Shown here one piece after another: positions 15,090-44,860 of a DNA stretch of 47,726 nucleotides (its first letter is position 1; each line of letters starts with the position of its first letter). Source of the stretch: Sphingobacteriaceae bacterium (GTDB lineage Bacteria; Bacteroidota; Bacteroidia; Sphingobacteriales; Sphingobacteriaceae); the NCBI GenBank assembly GCA_014380615.1, contig JACMJM010000046.1:1-47726 (forward strand), read 5' to 3'. The translations under genes and the position numbers were made by a program. The notes under the pieces are model-generated. The model was not told where the DNA came from. It ran no database searches and worked only from the letters and a program-made list of their open reading frames with translations.

Positions 15090-15114
15090 TTTGATATTCT
15101 TAATTCTGTGTATG

Positions 15115-17901: not shown

Positions 17902-17943
17902 TTGGCTAAAAAACGTTCAGTTTTTTGCCAAGTGTGATTTTTT
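17902..17943. other. Hairpin with downstream T-run between two minus-strand genes (terminator-like structure)
   Basis: ttggc(t)aaaaaac-gttca-gttttttgccaa is a 12-bp stem with a one-base bulge, followed by gtgtgattttttac. It lies 40-85 nt downstream of the stop of the 916-aa gene. Confidence 0.3.
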
Positions 17944-17984
17944 ACATGTTGCGTGTTATCCTGACCACAAAGGTGCAGAATAGC

Positions 17985-26294: not shown

Positions 26295-26921
26295 CTACTC
26301 TTCTGATTCGTTTGCCAGTTCCTTAAGGTTTGTTTCAAGAGCCGAAATTTTCTTAAAGTACTTCTCTCTGTAATACAGGTGGTTGAAGAGAAATGTGAGA
26401 GCTGTTACGCCCGCCGACAGAAACATTAAATTATCTTTCCCTAAATCTAAAGGCCCTAGAATCATCTTTAGAATTATAAAGAATGTAACGGGAAACAAAA
26501 AGAGATAAATTAAATTCATCCGCACATAAAACCTTCTGAACCGGAGGGTTGCTTTCGCTAAAGTATCTTTGAGGGCATGCGTAGTGTCGAAATCAAATAT
26601 CGCGGCCTGGTACCTAAATACCCTGATCGTGATAACGGCATATAGTGCTAAAAACGCGATTTCAATTAAATTATATCCCGGCGGATTAAATCGGGCGGGT
26701 AAAATAATATGCAATAAAATATTTACCGCCAATACACCAAGCAAAATCCCGCAGGAAACATCGCCCATTTTCTTCCAATACAAGTTCTTTGCCTGTAATT
26801 CATTTACCGTGCTTATAGTTTTCATAATTATTTCATTTAGTTTTTCTGCTGTTTGGGCCCGAAATTCAAATTCGGGCCCTTTACCGTCCTGCCAGTACCT
26901 TTTAAATTCGTCTAGTTCCAT
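26295..26921 (-). CDS. Polytopic membrane protein downstream of an ECF sigma; possible anti-sigma factor
   Basis: The 208-aa product lies 3 nt after the ECF sigma stop. It has a cytoplasmic N-terminus followed by about four hydrophobic helices. No conserved anti-sigma motif is recognised, so the call rests on position and topology. Confidence 0.4.
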   Translation of the reverse strand: MELDEFKRYWQDGKGPEFEFRAQTAEKLNEIIMKTISTVNELQAKNLYWKKMGDVSCGILLGVLAVNILLHIILPARFNPPGYNLIEIAFLALYAVITIRVFRYQAAIFDFDTTHALKDTLAKATLRFRRFYVRMNLIYLFLFPVTFFIILKMILGPLDLGKDNLMFLSAGVTALTFLFNHLYYREKYFKKISALETNLKELANESEE

Positions 26922-26924
26922 TTT

Positions 26925-27404
26925 TTACTTCTTTATAAGTATGCGCAGCTTAGTTTTTATTTTATTTAATTTAAACCCAATGTTAGATTCAGAAATCCCC
27001 AGTATTTCCGACATCTCTTTGTAACTGCAATCGTCAAGGTAAAGCATGGTTAACGCCCGTTCCACTTCAGAGAGTTTTTTAATAGCCTCATACATCTTAG
27101 TCAGTCTCTCTTCCTCGGGGCTTTCTACAAAGGCGGCGAAATTGCAGGTTCCATCACTTAATTCTTCAAATTTCTCCCGCCTGCTCTCCTTTCTAATCCG
27201 GGTTATAGCTGTATTTAGCGCAACTCGATACATCCAGGTAGATATTTTTGAATCGCCCTTGAATCCGGGATACGCTTTCCATAGCTGGAGAATAATATCC
27301 TGAAAAAGGTCCTCTATATCTTCTTTACCCCGGCAATAGAGATTGCATACCTTAAAAATTAAGCCCTCATTTTCTGAAATTATCTTTACAAATTGCTCTT
27401 TCAA
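26925..27404 (-). CDS. ECF-type RNA polymerase sigma-70 factor
   Basis: Region 2 (EDIEDLFQDIILQLWKAYPGFKGDSKISTWMYRVALNTAITRIRK) and region 4 (LSEVERALTMLYLDDCSYKEMSEILGISESNIGFKLNKIKTKL) are present. The product is 159 aa. Confidence 0.8.
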   Translation of the reverse strand: MKEQFVKIISENEGLIFKVCNLYCRGKEDIEDLFQDIILQLWKAYPGFKGDSKISTWMYRVALNTAITRIRKESRREKFEELSDGTCNFAAFVESPEEERLTKMYEAIKKLSEVERALTMLYLDDCSYKEMSEILGISESNIGFKLNKIKTKLRILIKK

Positions 27405-27564: not shown

Positions 27565-28281
27565 ATGAAATACTCTACGCATTATTTACTCTGTATTTTA
27601 CTTGTGTGCTGTCCGTTCTACGGCTTTCGCCCAGACCGGAAGCCCACACTTTTCATTATCGGAAACTCTCATGCCAGGAACGGTTCATTGGCTAACGGAG
27701 GCTTCGGCCAATGGGGATGGGGAAGCTTTATCCATAATCTCTTAGATACCACCAAAATATCAATACAAAACAGGGCGATGGGCGGAAGCAGTTCCACGAG
27801 TTATATCCAGACTGGCTTATGGGACAAAGTGCTGGCCGTTTTAAAACCAGGTGATTTTGTATTGATACAATTTGATAAATCCGAAAAGTATATTCAAGAT
27901 AGCAAATCCAAGGGGGCCACTCCGTTTATCTGTTCGCCCGGTGTTCGAAACGTTTGGATAAATAATAAAATAAACCGAAGGAATACCCGAAACGTCGAAG
28001 CGATGAAGGAGCAATATAAACTAAGCAAGGTTCCTTTTATCGACCTCTACACCCCCCTTTGCGATCATTACGATAAAATGGGACAAGATTATGTTTCGAG
28101 TATTTATTTCGGTATAGATTCCGTTCATACTATCGAGGGGGGTGCTAAAATGTCGGCCAGCCTGATTGCAGGAGGATTGAGAAATTTAAAAAAGAATCCG
28201 CTAAAAAAGTATCTCCTGAGGAAACCCCGGGACATGAAAAACTGGAAATACGCACCTAGTCCGGACCCTCGAAAGCTCTAA
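27565..28281 (+). CDS. SGNH hydrolase, rhamnogalacturonan acetylesterase-like (CE12-like), secreted
   Basis: TLFIIGNSHARNGS...GGFGQWGWGSF...GDFVLIQF aligns with the RGAE N-terminus ([25 protein letters not shown]...GDYVIVEFGHND). The block V DxxH is DSVHTIEGG. Block I reads GNS rather than GDS. Confidence 0.6.
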   Translation: MKYSTHYLLCILLVCCPFYGFRPDRKPTLFIIGNSHARNGSLANGGFGQWGWGSFIHNLLDTTKISIQNRAMGGSSSTSYIQTGLWDKVLAVLKPGDFVLIQFDKSEKYIQDSKSKGATPFICSPGVRNVWINNKINRRNTRNVEAMKEQYKLSKVPFIDLYTPLCDHYDKMGQDYVSSIYFGIDSVHTIEGGAKMSASLIAGGLRNLKKNPLKKYLLRKPRDMKNWKYAPSPDPRKL

Positions 28282-28507: not shown

Positions 28508-28582
28508 GAAAATCGCTTTTAAATAGAATTTCAAGCTATGCAATGAACGTCAGACTGCGTTTAGACACTGTCTGACGTTCAT
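28508..28582. repeat. Repeated intergenic palindromic element, copy A (3' of the cgs-like gene)
   Basis: ggaaaatcgcttttaaa ... atgaacgtcagac (28543-28555) / gtctgacgttcat (28570-28582) forms a 13-bp perfect stem with a 14-nt loop. It shares GAAA(A)TCGCTTTTAAA and the GAACGTCAGAC...CTGTCTGACGTT core with copy B at 38197-38299. Confidence 0.6.
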
Positions 28583-28629
28583 TTCGAGATATTAAGCCAT
28601 AACATAACAGCATCGTATATCTCATTCCA

Positions 28630-31600
28630 TTACCCTGCTTCGCAATACATCTCCACATCATGTGTTAGTCCGTCGTCAACCAATTGCAGTACATTTCCTT
28701 CTGTTTTAATACTTCCGGTTTTACTATATGAGCTTCCCTCGTTTAACTGAAAGACCGTGATTTTATAAACCGTGCGCCCATACTTGTAAATCACGTTAAC
28801 CGATGGCCAGCTGAGAGGGAAACAAGGTTTGAAAATTAAATTATTATGCCGCAGTTCAATACCGAGTAAAGAGCCGGTTATAAACTGGTACATCCACCCT
28901 GCCGAACCGGTGTACCAGGTCCAACCGCCACGGCCTTTATGCGATTCATTGGCATATACATCCGCAGCCATTACATAGGGCTCTACTTTATACACCTGAA
29001 CGGCATCGGCGTCTAAAGCATGGTTTAGAGGCTGAACAAGGTTAAATAACTCGTAAACTTTTTTGCGCTGGCCCAAAGCCGCGAAAGCCATAAGCGTCCA
29101 GATAGCGGCATGAGAATATTGTCCGCCGTTTTCACGAACGCCGGGAACGTAGCCACGGATATAACCCGGATTAGGCCCTTTCGAATCAAAAGGAGGATCG
29201 AGCAACTGGATTAGCTTTAAATCGGTTTTTACCAGATACTTGTTAAGAGAGGCCATACCCTGCGCCCTGCGCCCTTCATTAGCCGCACCAGATAATACAG
29301 ACCAGCTTTGAGCGATAGCATCAATGCGGCACTCCACGTTTTGGGCAGACCCTAAAGGACTTCCGTCGTCAAAATAGGCACGCCGGTACCATTCGCCGTC
29401 CCATCCCGATTCTTCAATATTGGTTTGCAATTTCAGAGCCTCTGCCTGGCACCTTTCGGCGAAAATAGTATCCCCGAAACCTTCTGCCACGGAAGTAAAC
29501 TTCGACAGTACATCATACAGAAAGAAGGCAAGCCATACACTTTCACCCTTGCCCCTCAGGCCAACCTGATCCATCCCGTCGTTCCAATCGCCGGCACCGA
29601 TAAATGGCAGGCCATGCGTACCGAATCGTAAACTAACCATAATAGCACGTTTACAATGTTCATATAAAGAAGCCTGCATGCCGGCACTTACCGGTAAATC
29701 ATATAATGTTTCTTCGTCTTCAAAAAGAGTACGGCTTTCTAAAAATCCTACCGAGGAATTTAATATTGCGGTATCGCCGGTCGCCGAAACATACCTCGAT
29801 ACTACAAAAGGCAGCCAAAGCATGTCGTCCGAACAGCGGGTTCGCACTCCCCTGCCCTCAGGCGGGTGCCACCAGTGCTGAACGTCGCCTTCGGCAAACT
29901 GGCGCGAGGCACTTAATAAAATTTGCTCGCGGGCCATATCAGGCCGGTTGTGCAACAACGCAAGAACATCCTGCAGCTGATCTCTGAAACCAAAAGCTCC
30001 GCCCGATTGATAGAATCCGCTTCGGGCAAACATACGGCAGGCCATTGTTTGATATGTCAACCAGCCGTTGGCCAGTACATTCAAGGCCATATCGGGTGTA
30101 TTTACCTGTACTTTTCCTAAAGTATCATTCCAGTATTCCTTTACTTCCCGCAAGGCTTCGATAACCATTTCGCGGACAGTAAACTTCCTTATCAGGGCAC
30201 TGGCAGCCTGGGTATTTTCTCCATTGCCCAGCATGAAAATAATCTCTTTTTCGGCACCGTCAAGCAAATCAAATTTTACCTGTAAAGCCGCACAGGGATC
30301 TACGGCAGCACCGGTTTTTCCGGAAAGCCTTTTTCGGTACATGGCCTGAGGCTCGTGTAATGTGCGATTACGGCCGATAAATTCTGTGCGATCTGCGGTA
30401 TAACTAAAATTCACTCCGCCGTCTACCTTGAAGAAAGTAACGCGTTCGGCGAAAGCAGAGTTATAACGGTTTCTCAATAACACCGCTCCGGTATTGGGGT
30501 CTTGTTCGGAAACGATGTGCATATGGGTTTTCGACCGAACATCACCCAAAACAGCCTCTATAAACCCAGTGGCAGAAAATTTACCTTCGCGGCCCGATTG
30601 GTTTTTAATTGTGAGAACGATAAATTTAACCGGTAGCTCTTTATGCGCAAACACGCACATTTCTGTGGCAATACCATTTTCAATATGCTCGAAAGTAGAA
30701 TAACCAAAGCCATGAGTAATGATATAAGGAGATGAGCCGTTTGCGGGAAATGCCGAAGGCGACCAAAAATCCCCTGTTTCCTCATCTCGTAAATAGAAGG
30801 CTTCGCCGCCGGTGTCGCTTACTGGATCGTTGCTCCATGGCGTAATGCGGTATTCGTGGGCATTTACCGCCCAGGTATAGGCCGATCCGCTCTCCGAAAT
30901 TACCGTACCGAAGCCCGGGTTAGCAATAACGTTTACCCATGGTGCCGGAGTAGTTTGACTGCCATTTACAGTAATCTTGTATTCCTTACCATCGGGTGTA
31001 AACCCGCCGGTACCATTAAAGAACAACAGTCCGTCCGGCAGGGCCAGGGTTTGTGATACGGGCTGGTTGATAATTATTTTAGGTTCGATAAGAGCAGGAA
31101 GCACCCTGTCTGATTGTCGGGAGTTTACCTGCTCGGATAAGGTACCGCGATTATCATAGATAATTACCCTTGCTACACTCTCAAAAAGAATGCGGTCTTC
31201 TGAAGACAGCTGGTCGACCGATTTTACATAAATAGTACCCGGGGTGTTATGAGTAAGGTTTGTATTTACTTCGGCGGTTATTAAACCGAGAATCTGATCC
31301 TGCAATACCTGACGATAGGTTCCGTGGTCTTCATTCCAGATTACCAGGTCGACAGCGAGGCCTTTTAAACGCCAATACGCATGGGCCTGCACCATCTGCC
31401 TCACCAGTTCCATACTCTCCGCATCGTAAATATGAAGTAGTACGATGGGTAAATCACCGGATACAGAATGGCTCCAAAGCCAGGACTGCCCGCGGAAATT
31501 ATTTTGAATAACCGAAGCCTCTGCCCGTAAATTAGCGTTGCCGTAAATTACAGACGAAGCCAGCCTGCCGTAAAGCTGGGCATCGCCTTCGGTAGCGTTA

Positions 31601-34600
31601 ATCTGTCGTAACAAAACCTGGCTATGGGTCCAGGAAAGTTCAAACGCACGGTTCTTTAGGTGCCTGTCGTGGTATTTGTACATCAGGGCGATACAAGCAT
31701 CTTTCGTTTCGCTGATACCGTAAATAAGGTCGAAAGTGATAGTTTGATTGGGCCTGATAGTTACCCTGTAACGGATAGATAGAATAGGATCCAAAACCGA
31801 ACCCTGCTTGCCCGAAAGCGAACTGGTATCCATTGCCTGAGGATGGGCAAGCGTTTTACCCCGACCAGTAAACTGCATCCTGTCTGTTTCGAATGAGATG
31901 GCTTCGGCAGCGGCACCCCTCACATCCATCATGTGGAACATCCAGGGCGGAGTTTCGCCTTCAGATCTGGGGCGGCGCGTACAGAGCACCGCATTCTGCT
32001 CTTCCATTATTTCTGTCTGCACAAAGAGATTACTGAAAGCGGGATGCGCTTCATCCGACGGCTGGCTCGCCATAACTATTTCGGCATAGCTGGTTACCTC
32101 CAACACCTTTACTACTTGGCCTTTATTAGTAATCCTGATACGCCTCATCTCGGTATCATCTTCGGGAGATACCACAATCTCGGTGCGAGTATCTATTCCG
32201 AAATCATTTCTGCGAAACTCTACGTGCCCCTGAGAAAACGTCGCCTCATAATTTTTTGCCGGATGAAGGGTCGGCTGGTAAGTATTTGACCAGAAAACAC
32301 CGCTTTTAACATCTTTTATATAGCAAAATATTCCGCGGTCGTCTTTAGTAGTATCTTCTCTCCAGCGGGTAACCGCGATATTTCGCCAGCGGCTATACCC
32401 CCCGCCCGAATTACTTATCATTACCTGGTAATTACCATTGCTTAACAGCTGAATTTCGGGTACTGGCGTATTAGGTGTGCGGATATTACGCACCTGTATA
32501 TTGCTTTCGGTGGTATGGGTTTCGATAATATCAGCCGTATGGGCATAAAACAGAGTGGTTCGTGGAATGCGCTCCTGTAAAAGCAATAAGGTAGCCTGAA
32601 ACCTTAGCTCGGCCGCAAAGCGTTGCTGCATGGGTTTATTAAGCAGCACATAAGCCAGTGAAAGAAAACCCATTCCCTGGTGATGCACCATATAAGAACG
32701 TACAATACTATTGGTTTTTCCCCGGGGTAAACGGCTAGCGGTGTAATCTATGGCTTCAAAAAAGCCATGTTCGCCTTCAAAACCCTCTCTTGATAAAAGC
32801 TGCAAATTGGCGCATGCCTTAACAGGAGAAACCATTAAGGCCAGCATAGTTGCGTAGGGTGCAATAACCAGGTCTTCTTCAAGTCCGCGCTTTAAGCCTA
32901 GGCCCGGTACACCAAAAGCCCGGTACTGATAATTCAAATTCGCGTCTACGGTATTATACCCCGATTCTGAGATACCCCAGGGCACTCCCCTTTGGGTAGC
33001 GTATTCTATCTGGCGCTTAACAGTGGCTTTACTTGTTTGGTGAAGCAGCGTATTTTCATACGATGGCATTACCAGCTGCGGCATAAGGTATTCGAACATT
33101 GAACCGCTCCAGGATAAAAGAATGGGATCTCCGCCTGAGTTGGTAAGTAAGCGGCCTAAAGCGAACCAGCTTTCCTGAGGAAGCTTACCCTGGGCTATGG
33201 CCACAAAAATACCCAGCCGGGCCTCGGAAGCAAGCAGATCATAGAAACTGTCATCTTTTCGCTGATCGTCAACGTTGTACCCGATACGCAGCAGGTTGGT
33301 AGATTTATCATAAAGAAAATCGTACTCAATTTCACTAAGCTCTTCGCATTGCCCTGAAAGTTTTTCGAGGAGCAGGATTTGGCTTTCAGCATATCTGCCG
33401 CCGGTTTCTAATAAAGTCGCGAATTTGGTTAACCATTCTATATTCGTTTCTCCAGCTTTCTTAAAACCTTCAATTACAACATCAGATTGAACACCTTTAA
33501 TATCTGACAAAGAGGGGATTACATCTAAATAAGTTAAATTATCGGGCAAAGGCATCTCTAACCACGGCACCAATTTAAGCAGATCATTGAGGATATAATT
33601 TACCTGGTCAGACAGACGAACCGCCCACTTATACAGTTCGGATTCGGCATCTTCTTGTTCAACAAGCTTCCCGCTGAGTAGGGCAAGATTTGAAAGATCT
33701 TTTTTTACGGAACTAAGGGTTGCATTTTCAGACAGCAAGGCGGTATCCAATAAGGCCTGGATCTCCTCAATCAAACCGTTTTCATGAGGATTACTTAGGC
33801 CCTGTATTATTTCGGTAGTAGTTATAAACCCGTGGAATACCTGCTTGCTGAAAATGGGCTGCCAGGGAACAGCCAAAAGCCCCTGACGCAGGGTGAGTAA
33901 ATGCCCGGCAAGATTTCCGCTATCAACCGTAGAAACATAACGCGGATGAAGAGGGGTTAAACTTAAGGTATCATACCAATTGTAAAAATGCCCTTTATAA
34001 CGTTCCAGCGCAAGCATCGACCGAAGTGTATTATCGCATCGAGAGGCAAGTTGTGAAGCTGTGATATAACCAAAATCATACGCTCCAAGATTGGCAAGCA
34101 AGGCCAGACCCATATTGGTTGGCGAAGTACGGTGGGCGATAACAGCTGCGGGGTGTTCCTGAAAATTATCAGGCGGAAGCCAGTTTTCCTGTGCGCTTAC
34201 AAAATTCTCAAAAAACGACCATGTTTTGCGGGCCGACTGATGAAGGAAGGTTAACTGTTCTGGCGAGAAATCGGGACTTTCCTCCTTCTCGGGCTTACTA
34301 AGCAGCCAGGCGATTGCTGGAGCAAAAAACCAGAGAATAAGTATTGGAGAAGCAACTATAACCGCATTAGAATTAATTAAAGAAAGAATTACCAGGCCAG
34401 CTACTGAAAGGAAGGGGGTAATCCACATGGTTTGATACTCAAACCAGACCGTATAATTTAATGGGGCAGATATTGTAGCCGAGGGTGTCCATTGCAAAAG
34501 TTTTTTACCTGAAACAAACATGCGCCAGTTGGTACGAACAATTGCGTCGAGATTTTTAAAAGCTTCGTAAGGCAGTACGGCCAAACCAAAAACAAAACGG

Positions 34601-37290
34601 ATAATAAGATCTCGTAATGTAATACCTACTTCGACAAGATGGGCGTTTAGAGTTAGTTCAATAGGTTTATTTAATAGCTGCCAGCATGCGGCGATTATAA
34701 CGGGTAACAATACAATAATAGTTACCATTAGTGTCCAAAACCAGGGAAGCGGCAGCACCGACCAGCCAAGCATCAGAAGCAGAATTAGTGAAACCGGAAG
34801 AATACTTCTTCGCAGGTTATCCAGAATTTTCCAGCGCGACAAAGCAGATATCGGATTTGACCTGAGACCGCCCTCCCCTCCGATTATAAATGGCAACATC
34901 CAGGCTGCTATCTGCCAGTCGCCCCTTATCCAGCGATGATGGCGCCTGATATCCGCGCTGTATTGCGCCGGACCGTCTTCGTATAATAAAACATCGCTTA
35001 TTAAACCCGACCTGGTATAGCAACCCTCGAGTAAATCGTGACTCAAAATGCGATTTTCAGGAAAAACCCCGTGAACGGCACGCTCAAAAACGTCTACATC
35101 ATAAATACCTTTACCTATAAACGATCCCTCTTCAAAAACATCCTGATACACGTCTGAGGATACGCGGGTATAAGGGTCAATTCCGGTAACGTTGCCCTGC
35201 ATACGCAGATATAAGGAAGTAGCCGTTTTGGGAATACTGGACGCAACACGAGGCTGAAGAATACCATAGCCTTCGGTTACCCGCTTTTTAGAAACATTAA
35301 ATACCGCCTGATTAAGCGGATGCGCCATGGTAGCTATAAATTTCCAGGCGGCATCCCTCGGCAACTGCGTATCTGAGTCGAGCGTTATAACGTATTTTAC
35401 ATTGCTTAAAAGAATAGTATTTCCAACCACGGCCGAAAATTCATTCGTACCACGGCCTCTTAAAAAGGCGTTCAGAGCTGATAGCTTTCCTCTTTTACGT
35501 TCATATCCCATCCATACTTTTTCGGATGGATTAAACGTACGAGGGCGGTGAAAAAGGAAAAAGGTATCGCCTTCGGAGGGGTTATATTTTTGATTGAGTG
35601 CCTCTATGCTCTTTGTGGCGGCCGCTACCAGGTCATCGTCGCCGGGCATGGTTTCGCTTTTGGCGTCTGTAAAATCTGTAAGGAGGGCAAAATGCAAGTT
35701 CTCTTCTTTATTTGCCAGAAAACGGATCTCCAGGCCTTCTATCAGTTCTTCAACATAGCTCAGGCTTGAAAGCATAGTCGGAATTACTACCATGCTTCGG
35801 TATTCGGTAGGAATTCCTTCCGAAAAATCCATCCGCGGTAAAAGGAAAGGCCTTACCCATATAGTAGAAAACCAGTTCACTAAAGAAACCGCCAGTTGCG
35901 AAGATCCGATAAAAGCGAGAATAGCCACTACAGATAACATCGCCCAGCCCTGGGCACCATTTATATAGGCTAATGCCCACATTGCTACGGCTCCTGATAC
36001 GGCTAGAATAACTATAGCAAAAAAATAAAGGAATACGGGAAACTCCCGGAGCGTACGGTTGAGCTTTTTCTTGATGGTGTAGCGCATTTTAGACGCTCGT
36101 TCGGCTTCCTTAAGGCCCTTATCAACCAAATAATAACCCAAATGCTTTTTCCGCCCACCCATTTCGGCAGATTCATGGGGCTTTTCGGTAAGGTTGAGTA
36201 CTATTTGCGCAACTTCTGTTTCTGAGAATAAAGAATTTTTAGAAATAGACTCTACAACATGCCGATACCTGTCGCGTGTGGCAAAGTCCATCAGCGGATA
36301 AACGCCTGTTGTATCCTGTCGTAAAACCTGTTCAACGCTGCTAAGTGTTTCTACAAATTCGCGCCAGTCGTTAGCCCCGATAAAACGAAGGGTGCCGATA
36401 CTATTACGCACCGAAACTTGGTCTGAAGCTTGTTTTTGTGTTTCCTGGCGGATAAGATCGCTGCTGCTTACACCCAATGCGGATAGCTGTTGTTCCATCC
36501 AACTTAAAGGAAGTGCCAACGCAGGCCCTTTTCCCTGTAGCGCACGGGTAAAACCAGCAACAAATGCTGAATTCAGTATAGGTTTAGACCTTGCCATATC
36601 CGCAATACTGAGAATTAGATTCCCGGGCTGTTCCTTAACGGTTGTAAGCATATTCCCCGCCCAGTAGTCGGCCATGTTCTGGTCAATCATATCTAATGCG
36701 ATCAAACCCGCTACTCTCCTAAGATTTTCGATTATGGCAAGGCGCACCATAATGGGGATAGCCCATAATTCGCCCAGGGTAAGAATAGTATGTGTTTGAT
36801 AAGCGGCGATAAAACTACTCAGGCTGTTTACATCAACGCGGCCATCGCTGTGCGAGATAAGCTCGAGTACAATATCATAAACGCGTGGTATACCGGTTCC
36901 CAGATAAGGCAAGCCTTCGCTATACCCCTTAGGTAAATGCTTCCTGGCTATAACAACCTGCTCTTCAATAAGATAAAAATTATCGAGCAGCCATTCGGCA
37001 CCTGGCGTAATATCACTACCCTGCCTGATTCCCTCTACAAGCATATTTCGCACGTCGAGTAATGATTTCTCATTGGCGTCGAGCCTTTTCAGCAACTGAT
37101 CTGAGGATATCCTTTTTTGAAGTTTATGTGAGCGAGCTACCGATTTTGCGTGGAGTTCCATCTGGCCCGAACTAAAGAGTTCTGAATGGAAGCGCAGATC
37201 ATCATCACTGGTTCTCATAGTATCGTCTTTTTGAAAGGTACTGCGAAGGCCTGATAACATGTCGAAAACGGTGGTGGTGATGTCTTTCAT
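28630..37290 (-). CDS. Cyclic beta-1,2-glucan synthase (Cgs/NdvB/ChvB-type; N-terminal GT84 glycosyltransferase with 6 TM helices, central duplicated domain, C-terminal GH94-like phosphorylase domain)
   Basis: The 2886-aa size is characteristic. The N-terminal region carries GELWAIPIMVRLAIIENLRR. TM helices flank a GT-A domain (VVIPTMLSS..., ITLDSDTQLPRDAAW as the DxD region). A duplicated beta-sandwich/(alpha/alpha)6 region is present (RNIAVTRWREDTTKDDRGIFCYIKD... and GFGTVISESGSAYTWAVNAHEYRITPW...). The C-terminal GH94-type motif is GAGDWNDGMDQVG. Confidence 0.85.
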   Translation of the reverse strand: MKDITTTVFDMLSGLRSTFQKDDTMRTSDDDLRFHSELFSSGQMELHAKSVARSHKLQKRISSDQLLKRLDANEKSLLDVRNMLVEGIRQGSDITPGAEWLLDNFYLIEEQVVIARKHLPKGYSEGLPYLGTGIPRVYDIVLELISHSDGRVDVNSLSSFIAAYQTHTILTLGELWAIPIMVRLAIIENLRRVAGLIALDMIDQNMADYWAGNMLTTVKEQPGNLILSIADMARSKPILNSAFVAGFTRALQGKGPALALPLSWMEQQLSALGVSSSDLIRQETQKQASDQVSVRNSIGTLRFIGANDWREFVETLSSVEQVLRQDTTGVYPLMDFATRDRYRHVVESISKNSLFSETEVAQIVLNLTEKPHESAEMGGRKKHLGYYLVDKGLKEAERASKMRYTIKKKLNRTLREFPVFLYFFAIVILAVSGAVAMWALAYINGAQGWAMLSVVAILAFIGSSQLAVSLVNWFSTIWVRPFLLPRMDFSEGIPTEYRSMVVIPTMLSSLSYVEELIEGLEIRFLANKEENLHFALLTDFTDAKSETMPGDDDLVAAATKSIEALNQKYNPSEGDTFFLFHRPRTFNPSEKVWMGYERKRGKLSALNAFLRGRGTNEFSAVVGNTILLSNVKYVITLDSDTQLPRDAAWKFIATMAHPLNQAVFNVSKKRVTEGYGILQPRVASSIPKTATSLYLRMQGNVTGIDPYTRVSSDVYQDVFEEGSFIGKGIYDVDVFERAVHGVFPENRILSHDLLEGCYTRSGLISDVLLYEDGPAQYSADIRRHHRWIRGDWQIAAWMLPFIIGGEGGLRSNPISALSRWKILDNLRRSILPVSLILLLMLGWSVLPLPWFWTLMVTIIVLLPVIIAACWQLLNKPIELTLNAHLVEVGITLRDLIIRFVFGLAVLPYEAFKNLDAIVRTNWRMFVSGKKLLQWTPSATISAPLNYTVWFEYQTMWITPFLSVAGLVILSLINSNAVIVASPILILWFFAPAIAWLLSKPEKEESPDFSPEQLTFLHQSARKTWSFFENFVSAQENWLPPDNFQEHPAAVIAHRTSPTNMGLALLANLGAYDFGYITASQLASRCDNTLRSMLALERYKGHFYNWYDTLSLTPLHPRYVSTVDSGNLAGHLLTLRQGLLAVPWQPIFSKQVFHGFITTTEIIQGLSNPHENGLIEEIQALLDTALLSENATLSSVKKDLSNLALLSGKLVEQEDAESELYKWAVRLSDQVNYILNDLLKLVPWLEMPLPDNLTYLDVIPSLSDIKGVQSDVVIEGFKKAGETNIEWLTKFATLLETGGRYAESQILLLEKLSGQCEELSEIEYDFLYDKSTNLLRIGYNVDDQRKDDSFYDLLASEARLGIFVAIAQGKLPQESWFALGRLLTNSGGDPILLSWSGSMFEYLMPQLVMPSYENTLLHQTSKATVKRQIEYATQRGVPWGISESGYNTVDANLNYQYRAFGVPGLGLKRGLEEDLVIAPYATMLALMVSPVKACANLQLLSREGFEGEHGFFEAIDYTASRLPRGKTNSIVRSYMVHHQGMGFLSLAYVLLNKPMQQRFAAELRFQATLLLLQERIPRTTLFYAHTADIIETHTTESNIQVRNIRTPNTPVPEIQLLSNGNYQVMISNSGGGYSRWRNIAVTRWREDTTKDDRGIFCYIKDVKSGVFWSNTYQPTLHPAKNYEATFSQGHVEFRRNDFGIDTRTEIVVSPEDDTEMRRIRITNKGQVVKVLEVTSYAEIVMASQPSDEAHPAFSNLFVQTEIMEEQNAVLCTRRPRSEGETPPWMFHMMDVRGAAAEAISFETDRMQFTGRGKTLAHPQAMDTSSLSGKQGSVLDPILSIRYRVTIRPNQTITFDLIYGISETKDACIALMYKYHDRHLKNRAFELSWTHSQVLLRQINATEGDAQLYGRLASSVIYGNANLRAEASVIQNNFRGQSWLWSHSVSGDLPIVLLHIYDAESMELVRQMVQAHAYWRLKGLAVDLVIWNEDHGTYRQVLQDQILGLITAEVNTNLTHNTPGTIYVKSVDQLSSEDRILFESVARVIIYDNRGTLSEQVNSRQSDRVLPALIEPKIIINQPVSQTLALPDGLLFFNGTGGFTPDGKEYKITVNGSQTTPAPWVNVIANPGFGTVISESGSAYTWAVNAHEYRITPWSNDPVSDTGGEAFYLRDEETGDFWSPSAFPANGSSPYIITHGFGYSTFEHIENGIATEMCVFAHKELPVKFIVLTIKNQSGREGKFSATGFIEAVLGDVRSKTHMHIVSEQDPNTGAVLLRNRYNSAFAERVTFFKVDGGVNFSYTADRTEFIGRNRTLHEPQAMYRKRLSGKTGAAVDPCAALQVKFDLLDGAEKEIIFMLGNGENTQAASALIRKFTVREMVIEALREVKEYWNDTLGKVQVNTPDMALNVLANGWLTYQTMACRMFARSGFYQSGGAFGFRDQLQDVLALLHNRPDMAREQILLSASRQFAEGDVQHWWHPPEGRGVRTRCSDDMLWLPFVVSRYVSATGDTAILNSSVGFLESRTLFEDEETLYDLPVSAGMQASLYEHCKRAIMVSLRFGTHGLPFIGAGDWNDGMDQVGLRGKGESVWLAFFLYDVLSKFTSVAEGFGDTIFAERCQAEALKLQTNIEESGWDGEWYRRAYFDDGSPLGSAQNVECRIDAIAQSWSVLSGAANEGRRAQGMASLNKYLVKTDLKLIQLLDPPFDSKGPNPGYIRGYVPGVRENGGQYSHAAIWTLMAFAALGQRKKVYELFNLVQPLNHALDADAVQVYKVEPYVMAADVYANESHKGRGGWTWYTGSAGWMYQFITGSLLGIELRHNNLIFKPCFPLSWPSVNVIYKYGRTVYKITVFQLNEGSSYSKTGSIKTEGNVLQLVDDGLTHDVEMYCEAG

Positions 37291-37625
37291 AAAAACAAAC
37301 TGATATTTATCACGGGATTATGATAAAATATCTGGAATTATTAATGCCTGAATACAGATAATGTTTTAGAGGATAGTGTTAACAAACCCGTTTGGCCAGA
37401 AAAACCAGCCTAATTTACAATGGCAAAGTAATAGCTTAAAGATAGGATATTAATAGGCATTTACAGTAATACAAGTATTTTACCCGGTTTTTTTTTCGGA
37501 TTATAGGAAACGTCATCATAGCCAACCTGTTAGCGAAGTTTATAAATTCATAATTAAACCGAGGGGGGGGAGGTACGGTGCTATAATTAGAATTCGAAAG
37601 TTCTTAAATAAAATATATTCAGCAC

Positions 37626-38196: not shown

Positions 38197-38299
38197 GAAA
38201 TCGCTTTTAAACTTTTATAGAACGTCAGACAGCGTTGGAAACAACTGTCTGACGTTGCTTTTTCTTTAAACAGTTCGCACGGTTTTCAAAAGCGATTTC
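38197..38299. repeat. Repeated intergenic palindromic element, copy B: nested inverted repeats with a plus-strand terminator-like hairpin (3' of the flotillin gene)
   Basis: Outer IR gaaatcgctttt (38197-38208) / aaaagcgatttc (38288-38299), 12 bp perfect. Inner hairpin aacgtcagacag (38221-38232) / ctgtctgacgtt (38245-38256), 12 bp perfect, 12-nt loop, followed by gctttttcttt. Confidence 0.6.
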
Positions 38300-38326: not shown

Positions 38327-40261
38327 TTAAACCTTAGCCACCGGATCGGCCCGCAATTCTTTAAGATCCTCTTTTTTCCCAGGATTCATCATCTCCATTA
38401 ACTTCAAGCCAAGCATCCCTTCTATGGCGGAACCATTACCACCATTTGCGCCAATCAGCACATCCGGAATTAGCTTTATATTTCCTTTTGAAAGCTCCTC
38501 AGTAATTTTGTAACGGGTAAAGTTTTCGCCACCTAAAGCCTTAACCGCTAATTGATAAGCTTCGGCAGTAGATTTGCCTACAGCAAGTATTTTACCTGCG
38601 TCGGCTGTACCTGTTAATGATATTTGTTCGGCCTCGGCTGATGCACGAAGTTTAATCGCTTCAGACTCTGCTACCGCTCTGGCTTTTGTAGCCTCGGCTT
38701 CGGCATGTGCCCGCATTTTGGTGGCTTCCGCCTCGGCCCCTACAGCTAGTTTAACACCTGCGGCATCTCCTTCAGATTTTTTAACGGTTGCGCTAGCTGT
38801 TTTTTCGGCTATTTCAACACTCTGTTGTGCCTTAACAATATCCTTTTGCATATCCGCAATAGCGGTTTCTTTTTCCATACCCTGCCTTTGTTCCTGAGCT
38901 TGTTTTTGAGTGTCGTAAGTTACTCGCTGCTCCTCCGCGATTTTTCGGTCGGTTAAAGTTTTCATAAGCGATTCGGGCGGAACAATATCCCCTATCAGCG
39001 TATCTACGGCATTTACATTATATTCATCCAGCACCTTTCTGATGTGTTCACGGGCCGACTCTTGTCTTTCTTTACGGGTGCTTAAGAAAGCGATTACATC
39101 ACTGTCCTGTGCAGAATTTCGGAAATAGTTACCAATGGTGGGTTCGAGAACCTGCGAAACAAGGTTAACCATGTTCCCGAAACGGGCAATAACTTTCGGA
39201 GCCTCGGTGGTAGGTACGTGAATAATCTGCGCCACATCGAGGTTGAACGGAAAACCATCTTTTGATCGAACAGTTATAGTAGACAAGTTCTTATCCAGGT
39301 TATGAGCTTCACTTCTTGCGGCTGCCCAGTTCAATACAAGATTGGTGGTAGGAACTAATTCTACTTTCATAGTGTATTTGTTGATGGGATATTTACCCGG
39401 GCCGAGTGGCTGAAGCCAAACACCTTTTGAACCTTTCTCAACAATATTTCCATGCTTAAAATCATCTCCTGTAAGATCCGGGCCGTCATGTCCGATGTAC
39501 GAAATCACCACCCCGACAAACCCTATAGGGATTTCTGTCATTGGAGTTTCTTCCAATTGAATGGCCCATGGATTAAGATTGTACGAACCCGCTAAAATTA
39601 CCTGAGGCTGCAATCCGCGGTTACCCCCGTTTAAAATGAATTTATCAAAGTCCTGAAAGTTATTATGGCCTTCTACCAGCTTACCTGCAATCTGTCCGGC
39701 TTCAATGGGTAAACCGTCTAAAGTGGTAACAATACCTACCATACTTTCCTGAATTCTGATCATATCGGTAACCGACACTTGAAACAGCATGGTATTGATA
39801 CGGTATGAGCCGGATGTTATATAGGATGTTTGCCGTCCTCTCTGTCCGCCGTTTTCCAGAAATTTTACCGCATCCTGAAAGTTATCAGAGTCGACATTTT
39901 TTCCGAGTATATTGCCGGTTGGTATTTCTGAACCGTCTTTCGCAAGTACTAACCCGATTTTACCTTCCGGTATTACTGTAAAAAGCTCCATGGTTACATC
40001 AAACTGCCAGAACCACATCCAGAAATAAATTCCGGGAGCGAGTGTTCTGCCCTGAAAACCTGCCTCACCCAGTGTGGCAATAATGCGCCCGTCGGGCAAT
40101 TCTTTATTTTTTCCGAACAGAACAAATTTTTTGGTTACCAAACCTATTTTATCCTCTGGCACTATGACCATTCCGAATAAAAATCTTAGAACGAATTTGT
40201 ACAACACGATAACAACGATGAGTGCAAGCACCCACCAATAATGTAACATTGGATTTTCCAT
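38327..40261 (-). CDS. Flotillin-like SPFH/band-7 protein (FloT/YqiK family)
   Basis: An N-terminal TM helix (YWWVLALIVVIVLYKFVL) precedes an SPFH domain. A long C-terminal coiled coil has the flotillin-typical Ala/Glu repeat (AVGAEAEATKMRAHAEAEATKARAVAESEAIKLRASAEAEQ). The 644-aa length also fits. Confidence 0.8.
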   Translation of the reverse strand: MENPMLHYWWVLALIVVIVLYKFVLRFLFGMVIVPEDKIGLVTKKFVLFGKNKELPDGRIIATLGEAGFQGRTLAPGIYFWMWFWQFDVTMELFTVIPEGKIGLVLAKDGSEIPTGNILGKNVDSDNFQDAVKFLENGGQRGRQTSYITSGSYRINTMLFQVSVTDMIRIQESMVGIVTTLDGLPIEAGQIAGKLVEGHNNFQDFDKFILNGGNRGLQPQVILAGSYNLNPWAIQLEETPMTEIPIGFVGVVISYIGHDGPDLTGDDFKHGNIVEKGSKGVWLQPLGPGKYPINKYTMKVELVPTTNLVLNWAAARSEAHNLDKNLSTITVRSKDGFPFNLDVAQIIHVPTTEAPKVIARFGNMVNLVSQVLEPTIGNYFRNSAQDSDVIAFLSTRKERQESAREHIRKVLDEYNVNAVDTLIGDIVPPESLMKTLTDRKIAEEQRVTYDTQKQAQEQRQGMEKETAIADMQKDIVKAQQSVEIAEKTASATVKKSEGDAAGVKLAVGAEAEATKMRAHAEAEATKARAVAESEAIKLRASAEAEQISLTGTADAGKILAVGKSTAEAYQLAVKALGGENFTRYKITEELSKGNIKLIPDVLIGANGGNGSAIEGMLGLKLMEMMNPGKKEDLKELRADPVAKV

Positions 40262-40461
40262 GATTTGTGATTTTAAGTTTATTTTTATAGGGTTTAGAAA
40301 GCTTTTTATCAGCTATTAAGAAAGCTGGTGTCGTGTTGTTGTACTATATCAGCCTGGGCGGAGTTGAAGCCCAAACGAATTACCCTTCGACAGAGCCTGT
40401 ACTGAGCTTTACGAAGTACTTATGGCCACAATCAACACGACTTTTTATCGTTAACCCGCCC

Positions 40462-40848
40462 CTAAGGCGAATCCTGAAATCCTGAATAAACGATTACATC
40501 GCCAACTTGTAATTGCGTGACCTCGTAAGTATTTGTCATGGGATGAAAGTGGCTAAAAAAGCCTGGTTTTAAATAGGAAACGACCACTTCTTTATTAACC
40601 AGATTCTTCGTCAAAGTGTCTGAATTTAATCCCATACTATCCGCTTGAGCGATAGAATACACTCCTCGGGTGTTATAAAAAGACAGCACTAAATTATTTA
40701 ATCCACCCTGCTTCACACCTGTCGCGATTGCTGTAAAAACGATGCTGTTTTGCCTGGTAACCGGCAAGGGCTTAATAATGAAGAATATTACGACTATAAA
40801 TATTAAGCCGGTAGTTATGGGCCAAAAGTATTTTAAAAATTTATACAT
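40462..40848 (-). CDS. Small membrane-anchored protein upstream of the flotillin gene; possible short NfeD/YuaF-like partner
   Basis: The 128-aa product has an N-terminal TM (ITTGLIFIVVIFFIIKPL) followed by a beta-rich soluble domain (VVVSYLKPGFF...VGDVIVYSGF). It sits immediately 5' of the flotillin gene in the same orientation, as in yuaF-floT type operons. Homology is not established. Confidence 0.4.
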   Translation of the reverse strand: MYKFLKYFWPITTGLIFIVVIFFIIKPLPVTRQNSIVFTAIATGVKQGGLNNLVLSFYNTRGVYSIAQADSMGLNSDTLTKNLVNKEVVVSYLKPGFFSHFHPMTNTYEVTQLQVGDVIVYSGFQDSP

Positions 40849-40892
40849 GTCAATCGTATCTAAATTTTAAGAGCCTGCTAAAATTATAAGTA

Positions 40893-42830
40893 CTATCCTA
40901 TCCTCTTCAACTGTATTCTTTTGGTATGGTCGATAATTAAGGGAACCTTTTCTACCGCTACAGAGCTTAAATCGAGGCCAAAGTTCTTTTCATCAGACAG
41001 GCTTAACTTTTTAAGCATTTGGTGATAAATTATAATTGATCGCTCGATAAATCCCAGACTGGCCGAATTAGTTATTACCTTTTCGATAACCACAAACCTA
41101 AAGTCTCCGGCGATATTAAATTCTCTTAGCGATGGGTAGTTACTTAGAATCTCTACCTCCGATTCCTTAACCAAATCTTCTACAACCGTTCGAAAGAGGA
41201 TATTGATTCTTTGATCTGCCTTAAATCCCAATTTAAAATCGACCCTGATAAGCTGCTTAGGGATAAATGAAGTTACTTTATACTCCATGGTATAAGGTTC
41301 GTCGGTAACATCAACATGCAAAAGCCAGTAAACATCTGCCCTTTTTGGGTTTTTTTGAATTATTGAGTAGATAATGGATTGCTCGATTTCGCTTTTAAAG
41401 TTAGCACTGGTAAGGTATACCAAATGCGAGGCATATTTAGGAACCGTGGTATCTTTGCTGAGTTTACTTATTACGGGGAAGTATTTATCAATCTCCACGA
41501 ACTTCATATAGCGGTTTCTGATTTGGCGGCCGTTAGACCATGCCCACATAACCGAAAATAAAATTGCGCCCAGAATAACGGTAAACCAGCCACCATGCAA
41601 TATTCTGGGGAGATTACCGGCCAGGAAGGTTAACTCGATTATGCCGTAAATGATGAGAAACATAACAACAAGATATAGGGGATAGTGCTTTCGGCGGAGG
41701 AAAACCGCTACCAGAATAGTTGTCATTAACATGGTGATAGTAATAGACAAACCGTAGGCATGTTCCATACTATCAGAGTCGCGAAAAATAAACAACACCA
41801 CCATACAGCCAACCCACAAAATCCAGTTCATTGAAGGGACATAGATTTGGCCTTTTTGCAGCGAGGGAAAGTTAATTTTTACTTTGGGCCAAAGGTTTAA
41901 CCTTACCGCTTCCGCAATCAAAGTAAACGAACCCGATATCAAGGCCTGGCTTGCGATGATAGCCGCAAGAGTGGCTACCGCGATTCCGTATATTAAGAAC
42001 CAATGAGGCATTATGCTGTAAAATGGAACTCTGCCTTCCAAATAGTGGCCCTGTTGCTGCCAAAGCCAAACTCCCTGTCCAAAATAATTAAGCAACAGGC
42101 AGGTTTTAACATAAATCCAGCTGATTCTGATATTGGCCCGTCCGCAATGCCCTAAGTCAGAATATAAGGCCTCCGCTCCAGTTGTACAAAGAAATACCCC
42201 GCCGATAATAAGAAATGCCTGAGGGTGAGTTGTGAGGGTATGATAGGCGTAATAAGGGTTAATACTTTTCAGGATTCCGGGAAACTGCGTTAAGTAAGAG
42301 AGCCCTAAAACCGCAATCATTGTAAACCAAATCCACATGATAGGCCCGAATGCTTTTCCAATAATAGAGGTTCCAAACTGTTGAACAATGAAGATAACCG
42401 AGAGAATTATGATTACGATAGGTATGGTAGGGATATTCGGATACCGAAGGGCAAGTCCTTCTATAGCGGCCGAAACTGTAAACGGAGGTGTAATTATACC
42501 ATCGGCCAAAAGAGCCGCACCACCAACAGCCGCCGGAATTATCAGCCATTTACCCTTATTTTTAACCAGCGAGAAAAGTGAAAATATTCCGCCTTCACCC
42601 TTATTGTCGGCCTGAAGTGTTATGATAACGTACTTTATGGTTGTTTGTAGGGTAAGCGTCCAAAACACGCACGATAATCCGCCCAGTATAAGTTCGGGTG
42701 TTATCAGCCTGGGGCCGATTATAGATTTGAATACATATAGAGGAGAAGTGCCGATATCTCCGTAAATAATACCTAAGCTAATTAATAGGCCGGCGGCTGA
42801 TAATTTATGTACATGTTTATGAGTACCCAT
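40893..42830 (-). CDS. kup: KUP/HAK/KT family potassium uptake transporter
   Basis: GLLISLGIIYGDIGTSPLYVFKSI is the hallmark GD(I/V)GTSPLY motif. There are about 12 TM helices plus a ~200-aa cytoplasmic C-terminal domain. The length is 645 aa. Confidence 0.9.
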   Translation of the reverse strand: MGTHKHVHKLSAAGLLISLGIIYGDIGTSPLYVFKSIIGPRLITPELILGGLSCVFWTLTLQTTIKYVIITLQADNKGEGGIFSLFSLVKNKGKWLIIPAAVGGAALLADGIITPPFTVSAAIEGLALRYPNIPTIPIVIIILSVIFIVQQFGTSIIGKAFGPIMWIWFTMIAVLGLSYLTQFPGILKSINPYYAYHTLTTHPQAFLIIGGVFLCTTGAEALYSDLGHCGRANIRISWIYVKTCLLLNYFGQGVWLWQQQGHYLEGRVPFYSIMPHWFLIYGIAVATLAAIIASQALISGSFTLIAEAVRLNLWPKVKINFPSLQKGQIYVPSMNWILWVGCMVVLFIFRDSDSMEHAYGLSITITMLMTTILVAVFLRRKHYPLYLVVMFLIIYGIIELTFLAGNLPRILHGGWFTVILGAILFSVMWAWSNGRQIRNRYMKFVEIDKYFPVISKLSKDTTVPKYASHLVYLTSANFKSEIEQSIIYSIIQKNPKRADVYWLLHVDVTDEPYTMEYKVTSFIPKQLIRVDFKLGFKADQRINILFRTVVEDLVKESEVEILSNYPSLREFNIAGDFRFVVIEKVITNSASLGFIERSIIIYHQMLKKLSLSDEKNFGLDLSSVAVEKVPLIIDHTKRIQLKRIG

Positions 42831-42914
42831 TTTTATAATTATGTTATAGCAGTGTTATGATAAGCCTAAACCGGCCGATCGAAATCTATTTATGCTGTTA
42901 TTAAGTTTTGATAT

Positions 42915-44639: not shown

Positions 44640-44681
44640 CAGAGTATACCGTTTAAAGAGTAAGAAACCTGCCTGTGCTTT

Positions 44682-44699
44682 TTATGGCCCCGGCCATAA
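44682..44699. promoter_or_regulatory. Perfect 18-bp palindrome TTATGGCCCCGGCCATAA upstream of the histidine kinase gene
   Basis: The site is exactly self-complementary and lies 43-60 nt upstream of the HK start codon (44639), in the 221-bp spacer between the response regulator and kinase genes. Confidence 0.45.
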
Positions 44700-44770
44700 G
44701 GAGCGAGTTATAAACTCATGCAGGATTCATTAATTTTTTATGGTACGCTAATGGTGTGCCGAAAACAGAA

Positions 44771-44798
44771 AGTGCCCTTAATTTGCATTAAGGGCACT
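44771..44798 (-). terminator. Putative intrinsic terminator after the sigma54-dependent response regulator gene
   Basis: agtgcccttaat-ttgc-attaagggcact is a 12-bp perfect stem with a 4-nt loop. On the minus strand it is followed by ttctgttttcgg (U-rich). It lies 63-90 nt downstream of the stop at 44861. Confidence 0.5.
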
Positions 44799-44860
44799 GT
44801 TACTAAAAATAAGGGATACGTTTTTATCAAAATGAAAAATTAATTTTTCATTTTGGGGTT

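What the first reader, a model, noticed from the sequence alone, without database searches (positions are those of the whole stretch)
28630..37290. Complete 2886-aa cyclic beta-1,2-glucan synthase homologue in a Bacteroidota context, without an adjacent NdvA/Cgt-type exporter
The architecture is complete: the N-terminal GELWAIPIMVRLAIIENLRR region, a 6-TM GT84 domain, the duplicated central domain and the GH94-like C-terminal domain with GAGDWNDGMD. Cyclic beta-1,2-glucans are best known from Rhizobiales and Brucella, where they act in osmoadaptation and host interaction, and there the gene usually neighbours its ABC exporter ndvA/cgt. Here the neighbours are a 4-TM protein and an SGNH esterase. 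A soil or rhizosphere Bacteroidota making cyclic glucan would be of physiological interest. The gene also ends next to a repeat element (copy A).
Basis: partly seen in the sequence, partly recalled or inferred. Interest (0 to 1): 0.55.

Follow-up and report, generated by a model that had tools for sequence, protein, structure and literature searches.

The report
This is an intact gene for the giant enzyme that makes ring-shaped beta-1,2-glucan, in a Sphingobacteriaceae genome fragment; such genes are common across Bacteroidota and this one is already named so in GenBank, so it is ordinary, although nobody appears to have shown the sugar in this phylum.

Summary
Window 28630-37290 (- strand) is one uninterrupted 2886-aa ORF. 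[quoted passage not shown] All 18 residues shown by mutagenesis or structure to matter in A. tumefaciens Cgs and T. italicus CGS are present. They are also invariant in 78 full-length homologues.

The window holds no NdvA/Cgt exporter and no OpgC/Cgm homologue. That absence is not special. None of 80 related loci has either gene within 10 kb, and cgs has no conserved neighbours in this clade.

- At least 481 species-level genomes encode relatives. About 66 of the best 80 are Bacteroidota, including Pedobacter at 76-79% identity.
- The raised G+C of the gene is a family-wide trait, not a sign of recent transfer.

Most likely it makes cytoplasmic cyclic beta-1,2-glucan from UDP-glucose on a tyrosine-linked primer. 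How the glucan is exported is unknown. It is a new member of a known kind, of low interest. The one open point is that I found no report of the product in Bacteroidota.

The parts
28630..37290 (-). [quoted passage not shown]
36046..37290 (-). N-terminal scaffold domain (residues 1-415), containing GELWAIPIMVRLAIIENLRR; no Pfam model matches it
   Evidence: 26% identical to S. meliloti NdvB. Role as side scaffold and primer-glucan binder inferred from PMC10901819.
35851..36045 (-). TM helices 1-2 (residues about 416-480)
   Evidence: hydropathy
34861..35850 (-). GT84 glycosyltransferase domain (residues about 481-810). Key residues: D539, R598, D638-x-D640, primer tyrosine Y707 (GIDPY), catalytic base D752, R786-W787, R789.
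   Evidence: Residues 470-900 align to 8rf0, E 4e-99. Positions. All invariant in 78 homologues.
34291..34860 (-). TM helices 3-6 plus an interface-type hydrophobic helix (residues about 811-1000)
32521..34290 (-). Cyclization (CY, GH189) domain (residues about 1001-1590). Key residues: S1120, D1123, acid/base E1356, E1400, nucleophile E1442, H1536/H1537. A variable ~180-aa insert lies at about 1140-1320.
   Evidence: residue roles from PMC10834661
28633..32520 (-). GH94 phosphorylase (GP) half (residues about 1591-2886): two supersandwich domains, a Rossmann-like insert and the catalytic barrel. D2437 lies in GFRDQLQD and the catalytic acid D2571 in GDWNDGM.
37291..37625 (-). 335-bp upstream intergenic region, presumed to hold the cgs promoter; no convincing motif found
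28509..28583 (.). Palindromic element, copy A. The 14-bp-stem hairpin at 28542-28583 starts 47 nt after the cgs stop. It may act as a transcript-end hairpin, but no U-tract follows it.
   Evidence: RNA fold z = -5.3
38197..38299 (.). Palindromic element, copy B: outer arms GAAATCGCTTTTRAA around the inner GAACGTCAGAC...GTCTGACGTT hairpin, upstream of the 131-aa ORF
   Evidence: RNA fold z = -7.0

Best explanation
[quoted passage not shown] The mechanism is inferred from A. tumefaciens Cgs and T. italicus CGS. The GT84 domain sits under a compact six-helix membrane anchor. It glucosylates Tyr707 and extends a beta-1,2-glucan primer from UDP-glucose on the cytoplasmic side. The GH94 domain trims the growing chain with phosphate and so sets its length. 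The GH189 domain (nucleophile E1442, acid/base E1356) transglycosylates the chain onto itself and releases a ring of roughly 17-25 glucoses. The primer stays on the tyrosine for the next round. The gene is a stand-alone unit inherited within Sphingobacteriaceae/Bacteroidota. Any export to the periplasm must use an unlinked transporter. The physiological role is inferred, not shown: envelope or osmotic (possibly cold) stress adaptation in a free-living bacterium.
For: Shown here:
- The ORF is uninterrupted and colinear with S. meliloti NdvB (35% identity, no indel over 48 aa) and with A. tumefaciens Cgs (E = 0).
- All functionally tested residues are conserved: GT D527/R586/D624/D626/Y694/D739/R773/R776; CY S1101/D1104/E1300; TiCGS E1356/E1400/E1442/H1536/H1537; GP D2393/D2528.
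- The same 18 positions are invariant in 78 full-length homologues, while only 2-32% of columns per domain are 95% or more conserved. That points to purifying selection on all three active sites.
- Six TM segments.
- The closest relatives are Pedobacter (79%, 76%) and Daejeonella (72%), which matches the contig's Sphingobacteriaceae label.
From the literature:
- Purified Cgs alone makes the cyclic glucan in proteoliposomes, Y694 carries the primer, and the residue roles are defined (PMC10901819).
- The CY domain alone cyclizes linear glucan (PMC10834661).
Against: No product has been demonstrated for any Bacteroidota Cgs. No Cgt/NdvA or Cgm/OpgC lies nearby, so where the glucan ends up is unknown. 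Identity to the characterised enzymes is moderate (35% to NdvB). The CY insert and TM regions are poorly conserved, so ring size or regulation could differ. No promoter or expression evidence exists for this gene.
Confidence: 0.85

Rival explanations
1. The gene lies on a recently acquired segment. The 131-aa ORF plus cgs would be bracketed by the two palindromic repeats and brought in by horizontal transfer from a donor with higher G+C.
For: cgs G+C is 0.464 against 0.406 in the flanks. Two copies of one palindromic element lie just outside the 131-aa ORF + cgs block. The immediate neighbours are not shared with any of 80 related loci, including the 79%-identical Pedobacter locus. Cgs homologues occur on conjugative plasmids and in many phyla.
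Against: The G+C excess is family-wide: 95% of 73 loci, median +3.5 points, and +6 to +7 in the Pedobacter and Daejeonella relatives. The nearest homologues follow the host's taxonomy. A LytTR two-component pair 9 kb upstream is 70-74% identical to one 3.4 kb upstream of cgs in the Pedobacter contig, which suggests a shared ancestral neighbourhood later rearranged. No integrase or transposase lies nearby. The palindrome is absent from all fetched loci. It looks like a REP-like intergenic hairpin.
Confidence: 0.1
2. The enzyme makes or handles a different product: linear beta-1,2-glucan, a cyclic glucan with an unusual ring size, or mainly phosphorolytic breakdown of imported beta-1,2-glucan. 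It would not be making the canonical periplasmic cyclic glucan.
For: No exporter or succinyltransferase is linked. The CY insert (residues 1140-1320) is almost unconserved: 1.7% conserved columns and 19% identity to NdvB. The GP active site is dispensable for function in A. tumefaciens, so it alone says little.
Against: The cyclase nucleophile, the acid/base and the supporting E1400/H1536/H1537 are all invariant. So are the primer tyrosine and the GT residues. There would be no reason to keep a complete three-site machine for a linear or purely catabolic role. Known beta-1,2-glucan catabolic enzymes (SOGP, SGL) are small soluble proteins.
Confidence: 0.05

Closest known systems
Agrobacterium tumefaciens Cgs (ChvB), cryo-EM structures 8RF0/8RF9 (PMC10901819)
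   Same: Same length class and the same order of NTD, 6 TM, GT84, CY and GP domains. Every mutated or structurally assigned residue is conserved: D527, R586, D624, D626, Y694, D739, R773, R776, S1101, D1104, E1300, D2393, D2528. E = 0, 1956 bits.
   Different: A different phylum. The NTD, TM helices and the 4-helix CY insert (the dimer contact in A. tumefaciens) have diverged. The chvA exporter sits next to chvB in Agrobacterium (my recollection, not tested here); no exporter is linked in this window.
Sinorhizobium meliloti NdvB with its locus ndvB-opgC-hyp-ndvA
   Same: 35.2% identity end to end and colinear, with no domain gained or lost.
   Different: The rhizobial locus carries OpgC/Cgm immediately downstream and the glucan ABC exporter 2.7 kb away. 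Neither has a homologue in the window or within 10 kb of cgs in 80 related loci.
Thermoanaerobacter italicus CGS cyclization domain, founding member of GH189 (8WY1; PMC10834661)
   Same: Residues 1008-1577 match at E 1.9e-125. E1356, E1400, E1442, H1536 and H1537 are conserved, and at identical residue numbers.
   Different: Only the isolated domain of the Firmicutes enzyme was characterised. The host is a monoderm thermophile.
Uncharacterised Bacteroidota Cgs homologues (Pedobacter superstes P351, Daejeonella, Algoriphagus, Dyadobacter, Chitinophaga and others)
   Same: 65-79% identical, full length, the same Pfam architecture, and also stand-alone genes.
   Different: Nothing of substance. 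The window's gene is one more member of this clade. Flanking genes differ from locus to locus.
GH94 phosphorylases (cellobiose phosphorylase; 1,2-beta-oligoglucan phosphorylase)
   Same: The C-terminal 800 residues match cellobiose phosphorylases at about 1e-87 and share the catalytic WND aspartate.
   Different: Those are soluble ~800-aa catabolic enzymes with no GT84, TM or GH189 parts. Database names such as 'cellobiose phosphorylase' or 'glucoamylase family protein' given to Cgs homologues are partial annotations.

Membership tests
[quoted passage not shown] | A single ~2800-2900-aa polypeptide with colinear NTD, TM, GT84, TM, cyclase and GH94 parts | tested here: met
[quoted passage not shown] | GT84 active site: UDP-binding D527/D624-x-D626, catalytic base D739, R773-W motif, R586/R776 (A. 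tumefaciens numbering) | tested here: met
   D539, D638, D640, D752, R786-W787, R598, R789; invariant in 78 homologues. The Pfam GT2_3 hit alone is below threshold.
[quoted passage not shown] | Autoglucosylated primer tyrosine (Y694) in the IF1-homology loop | tested here: met
   Y707 in a conserved GIDPY. The glucosylation itself cannot be tested here.
GH189 (CGS cyclization domain) | Nucleophile E1442 and acid/base E1356, with supporting E1400 and H1536/H1537 | tested here: met
GH94 phosphorylase domain | Supersandwich plus (alpha/alpha)6 catalytic domain, with catalytic Asp in the DWND motif (D2528) and D2393 | tested here: met
   PF06165 x2 and PF17167 above threshold; D2571 and D2437
[quoted passage not shown] | Six-helix membrane anchor | tested here: met
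   Six segments by Kyte-Doolittle scan, plus one extra hydrophobic stretch. This is a crude method.
[quoted passage not shown] | Makes cyclic beta-1,2-glucan (DP about 17-25) from UDP-glucose | not testable with these tools
   Needs biochemistry. No report for any Bacteroidota enzyme was found.
Rhizobial-type cyclic glucan locus (ndvB/chvB with ndvA/chvA/cgt exporter and cgm/opgC) | ABC exporter and OpgC-family succinyltransferase linked to the synthase gene | tested here: not met
   tblastn with S. meliloti NdvA and OpgC gives no hit in the window, and only weak generic ABC hits in a few of 80 loci. The two ABC exporters near cgs (L059, L076) best match ABCB/MsbA-type pumps. Whether an unlinked exporter exists elsewhere in this genome could not be tested.

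The most novel reading that the evidence does not exclude
The Bacteroidota Cgs clade works without a Cgt/NdvA-type exporter or a Cgm modifier. The cyclic glucan would then be kept in the cytoplasm as a compatible solute or cryoprotectant, or would reach the periplasm by a route unrelated to the rhizobial ABC exporter. It would serve abiotic stress tolerance (osmotic or cold) in free-living bacteria rather than host interaction. Loose hints only: Kup and flotillin lie upstream here; a P-type cation ATPase lies near cgs in 7 related loci; many hosts are cold-habitat taxa; cold-shock genes sit beside plasmid-borne cgs in Klebsiella.
Probability: 0.2. Interest if true: 0.45.

Novelty: new member of a known kind. 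Interest (0 to 1): 0.2.

Why it matters
It matters little for this gene on its own. It adds one more well-preserved member to a large, already annotated family. The broader point is modest. Cyclic beta-1,2-glucan is studied almost only as a host-interaction factor of Rhizobiales and Brucella. Yet complete, catalytically intact synthases are widespread in free-living Bacteroidota, with no linked exporter or modifier, and I found no report of the product in that phylum. Cultured relatives such as Pedobacter superstes, Dyadobacter and Algoriphagus would allow a simple test of whether these bacteria make the glucan, where it accumulates and what it protects against.

Tried and rejected
- Exact-sequence contig look-up found nothing, although the protein is in the collection as MBC8054110.1.
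- NCBIfam has no model that hits the protein or its small neighbours.
- Rfam and tRNA scans of the window were empty.
- The default repeat search (seed 12, minimum 30 nt) missed the palindromic element. It was found only with short patterns.
- The sigma-70 promoter and terminator scans were at background level, and no Bacteroidota-type TAnnTTTG motif lies upstream of cgs. No promoter is assigned.
- I tested whether the two ABC exporters near cgs in L059 and L076 are Cgt-like. Their best matches are ABCB1/MsbA-type pumps and they share 25-33% identity with NdvA, so they were rejected as dedicated exporters.
- I considered the 131-aa membrane ORF and the GDSL-like ORF as functional partners. Both were rejected because neither has a homologue near cgs in any of 80 loci. 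The GDSL-like gene is convergent and sits beside a GH28 pectinase-type gene.
- Raised G+C was rejected as evidence of recent transfer, because it is family-wide.
- I did not predict a structure. The protein exceeds the 1200-aa limit and solved homologues already cover it.

Full report
**Observation.** Window 28630-37290 on the minus strand is a single ATG-initiated ORF of 2886 codons. It is the only long ORF there.

Pfam finds two GH94 supersandwich domains (E 3.6e-165), the GH94 catalytic domain (E 1.5e-120) and a Glycoamylase-like stretch at 1350-1548. It also gives a sub-threshold GT2_3 hit at 760-861. A sequence search of the PDB returns the full-length A. tumefaciens cyclic glucan synthase (8rf0, 8rf9) at E = 0 and 1956 bits. 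It also returns the isolated cyclization domain of Thermoanaerobacter italicus CGS (8wy1) at E 1.9e-125 over residues 1008-1577. GH94 cellobiose and chitobiose phosphorylases follow, over the last ~800 residues.

A hydropathy scan gives two TM segments before the transferase domain and four after it, as in the six-helix anchor of the solved enzyme (PMC10901819).

I took the functionally tested residues from two papers:
- The A. tumefaciens cryo-EM paper (PMC10901819) gives the following.
  - GT domain: D527 and D624/D626 (UDP binding), D739 (catalytic base), R773 of the RW motif, R586 and R776.
  - Primer: Y694, which carries the glucan primer.
  - CY domain: S1101, D1104 and E1300.
  - GP domain: D2393 and D2528, the latter being the catalytic acid.
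- The T. italicus cyclization-domain paper (PMC10834661) gives E1442 (nucleophile), E1356 (acid/base), E1400 and H1536/H1537.

Counting along the HMMER alignments showed that chain 8rf0_A carries the paper's numbering: its DxD falls at 624/626. Every one of these residues aligns to an identical residue here. Their positions in this protein are:

| Domain | Residues |
|---|---|
| GT84 | D539, R598, D638, D640, Y707, D752, R786-W787, R789 |
| CY (GH189) | S1120, D1123, E1356, E1400, E1442, H1536, H1537 |
| GP (GH94) | D2437, D2571 |

In a MAFFT alignment of 78 full-length homologues, all 18 positions are invariant. By contrast, only 2-32% of columns per domain are at least 95% conserved. The protein is colinear with S. 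meliloti NdvB at 35.2% identity, and no insertion or deletion exceeds 48 residues. Nothing suggests decay or loss of a domain.

[quoted passage not shown] That contig is this window.

The 120 best database hits are all full length (2839-2955 aa) and 65-79% identical. The named ones come from Pedobacter, Daejeonella, Chitinophaga, Flavisolibacter, Flavihumibacter, Rhodonellum and Lentimicrobium.

I scanned one genome per GTDB species using six peptide patterns taken from this protein. It found 481 stretches encoding a relative. Because the patterns come from this protein, that is a lower bound biased towards close relatives. Of the best 80 loci, about 66 are Bacteroidota. They span Sphingobacteriales, Cytophagales, Chitinophagales, Flavobacteriales and Bacteroidales.

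Clustering by identity puts the window's protein in the largest group, 44 of 81 sequences. Pedobacter (79%, 76%) and Daejeonella (72%) are its nearest neighbours, which agrees with the contig's taxonomic label. A second Bacteroidota group is about 54% identical.

Homologues at 45-49% identity also sit on plasmids of Serratia, Rahnella, Klebsiella, E. coli, Salmonella and Pantoea. The gene is thus a common feature of the lineage, and of bacteria well beyond Rhizobiales.

Full-text searches found no paper that demonstrates or studies cyclic beta-1,2-glucan in Bacteroidota. The nearest item is a preprint reporting strong differential expression of a GT84 gene in an Arctic Flavobacterium under oil stress. 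That paper reads it as cell-wall modification.

**The exporter question.** In S. meliloti the annotated locus reads ndvB, an OpgC-family gene, a hypothetical gene, then the glucan ABC exporter 2.7 kb downstream.

I translated that NdvA and OpgC and ran tblastn against the window and the 80 related loci, each with up to 10 kb of flank. The window has no hit at E <= 1e-3. OpgC has no hit anywhere. NdvA gives only weak, generic ABC matches in eight loci. A motif scan found just three ABC ATPases in all flanks. The two of exporter size best match ABCB1/MsbA-type pumps rather than Cgt. The Klebsiella plasmid copy also lacks a linked exporter.

All-against-all clustering of flank ORFs shows no conserved neighbour in the window's clade. 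None of the window's own immediate neighbours has a homologue near cgs in any other locus. Those neighbours are the 131-aa membrane ORF, an SPFH/flotillin protein, a 128-aa ORF, the Kup K+ transporter and the GDSL-like ORF.

The absence of an adjacent exporter is therefore real, but it is the norm for this clade and not a peculiarity of this gene. Whether an unlinked Cgt-like exporter exists elsewhere in the genome cannot be tested from a 47.7-kb window.

**Horizontal acquisition?** The gene is richer in G+C than its flanks, 0.464 against 0.406. The same excess appears in 95% of 73 loci (median +3.5 points) and reaches +6 to +7 points in the Pedobacter and Daejeonella relatives. It is a property of the family, not a mark of recent arrival.

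A LytTR two-component pair lies 9 kb upstream. It is 70-74% identical to a pair 3.4 kb upstream of cgs in the 79%-identical Pedobacter contig, which hints at a shared ancestral neighbourhood later rearranged. Otherwise the flanks differ even between the closest relatives.

Two copies of a palindromic element lie just outside the 131-aa ORF + cgs block, at 28509-28583 and 38197-38299. Both fold far better than shuffled sequence, with z of -5.3 and -7.0. The element occurs in none of the other fetched loci, and no integrase or transposase is nearby. I read these as REP-like intergenic hairpins. Copy A starts 47 nt after the stop codon and may serve as a transcript-end hairpin, although no U-tract follows it.

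**Most likely mechanism.** Shown here: the architecture and the active-site residues. Inferred from the two characterised homologues: everything below.
1. The GT84 domain, docked under the compact TM bundle, autoglucosylates Y707.
2. It then elongates a beta-1,2-glucan from UDP-glucose inside a cytoplasmic chamber.
3. The GH94 domain phosphorolyses over-long chains and so sets the length.
4. The GH189 domain forms a glucosyl-enzyme intermediate on E1442. With E1356 acting through a substrate hydroxyl, it closes the ring. This releases cyclic glucan and leaves the primer on the tyrosine (PMC10901819, PMC10834661).

Because the TM domain of the solved enzyme forms no channel, the product is released in the cytoplasm. 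It needs a separate exporter if it is to reach the periplasm. I give this reading 0.85.

The rivals are less likely. One is a different product or a catabolic role. The other is a recently transferred island. The reasons are set out under each rival.

**Verdict.** This is a well-preserved new member of a known enzyme family. It is already correctly named in GenBank and is common in its phylum, so interest is low (0.2). One question remains and is cheaply testable in cultured relatives: do free-living Bacteroidota really make cyclic beta-1,2-glucan, where does it go without a linked exporter, and what is it for?

Noticed in passing
window 28509-28583 and 38197-38299: Two copies of a nested palindromic element: outer arms GAAATCGCTTTTRAA around an inner GAACGTCAGAC...GTCTGACGTT hairpin. 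They bracket the 131-aa ORF + cgs block. Both fold far better than shuffles (z -5.3 and -7.0). Copy A lacks a good right outer arm. The element is absent from all 82 fetched loci.
   Followed up: partly
L030, L032, L033, L034, L047, L052, L056, L061, L062 (about 8.3-10.0 kb in each locus): A second Bacteroidota Cgs clade, about 54% identical to the window's protein, has a phosphoglucomutase gene a median 10 bp upstream on the same strand in 9 loci. Transketolase and RpiB often lie further upstream. That looks like a sugar-phosphate supply or recycling link, which the window's clade lacks.
   Followed up: partly
window 38327-46192; L001, L003, L004, L015, L034, L036, L047: Upstream of cgs the window carries an SPFH/flotillin protein, a Kup K+ transporter, a HAMP/PAS histidine kinase and a sigma-54 response regulator. 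In 7 related loci, including Daejeonella and Algoriphagus, a P-type cation ATPase lies within 10 kb of cgs. This is a loose recurrent association with ion transport. It was not tested for significance and is confounded by shared ancestry.
   Followed up: partly
L023 and L031 (both from Aequorivita MAG JBARWQ01): One Flavobacteriales MAG carries two full-length cgs copies on different contigs, each 62-63% identical to the window's protein. Taibaiella and Puia species appear in more than one identity cluster.
   Followed up: no
L081 (Klebsiella variicola plasmid pKV1, NZ_CP009275.1) and other plasmid hits: Full-length cgs (about 47% identity) sits on IncF-type plasmids (L081, pKV1, typed conjugative) of Klebsiella, E. 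coli, Salmonella and Enterobacter. It has no linked exporter and lies next to cold-shock genes, lpxP (cold-induced) and pagP.
   Followed up: no
locus list: Many hosts in the window's clade are cold-habitat taxa: Rhodonellum psychrophilum, Algoriphagus antarcticus, Dyadobacter arcticus, Gelidibacter, Aequorivita and Antarctic 'ant_bin' MAGs. This could be sampling bias, or a hint of a role in cold or freeze stress.
   Followed up: no
window 10531-26010: A run of glycoside-hydrolase genes lies downstream of cgs: GH26 mannanase-like, GH2, a GH5-like 859-aa protein and a GH28/pectate-lyase-fold protein. Two ECF sigma factors with putative membrane anti-sigma partners lie at 6832-7994 and 26295-27404. 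No beta-1,2-glucan-specific families were seen.
   Followed up: no
window 27565-28281 (+): The 'SGNH esterase' neighbour matches Pfam Lipase_GDSL only just below threshold (23.1 vs 23.6 bits) and weakly resembles pectin acetylesterase PaeY. It has a signal-peptide-like N-terminus and is convergent with cgs, so it more plausibly belongs with the nearby GH28 gene.
   Followed up: partly
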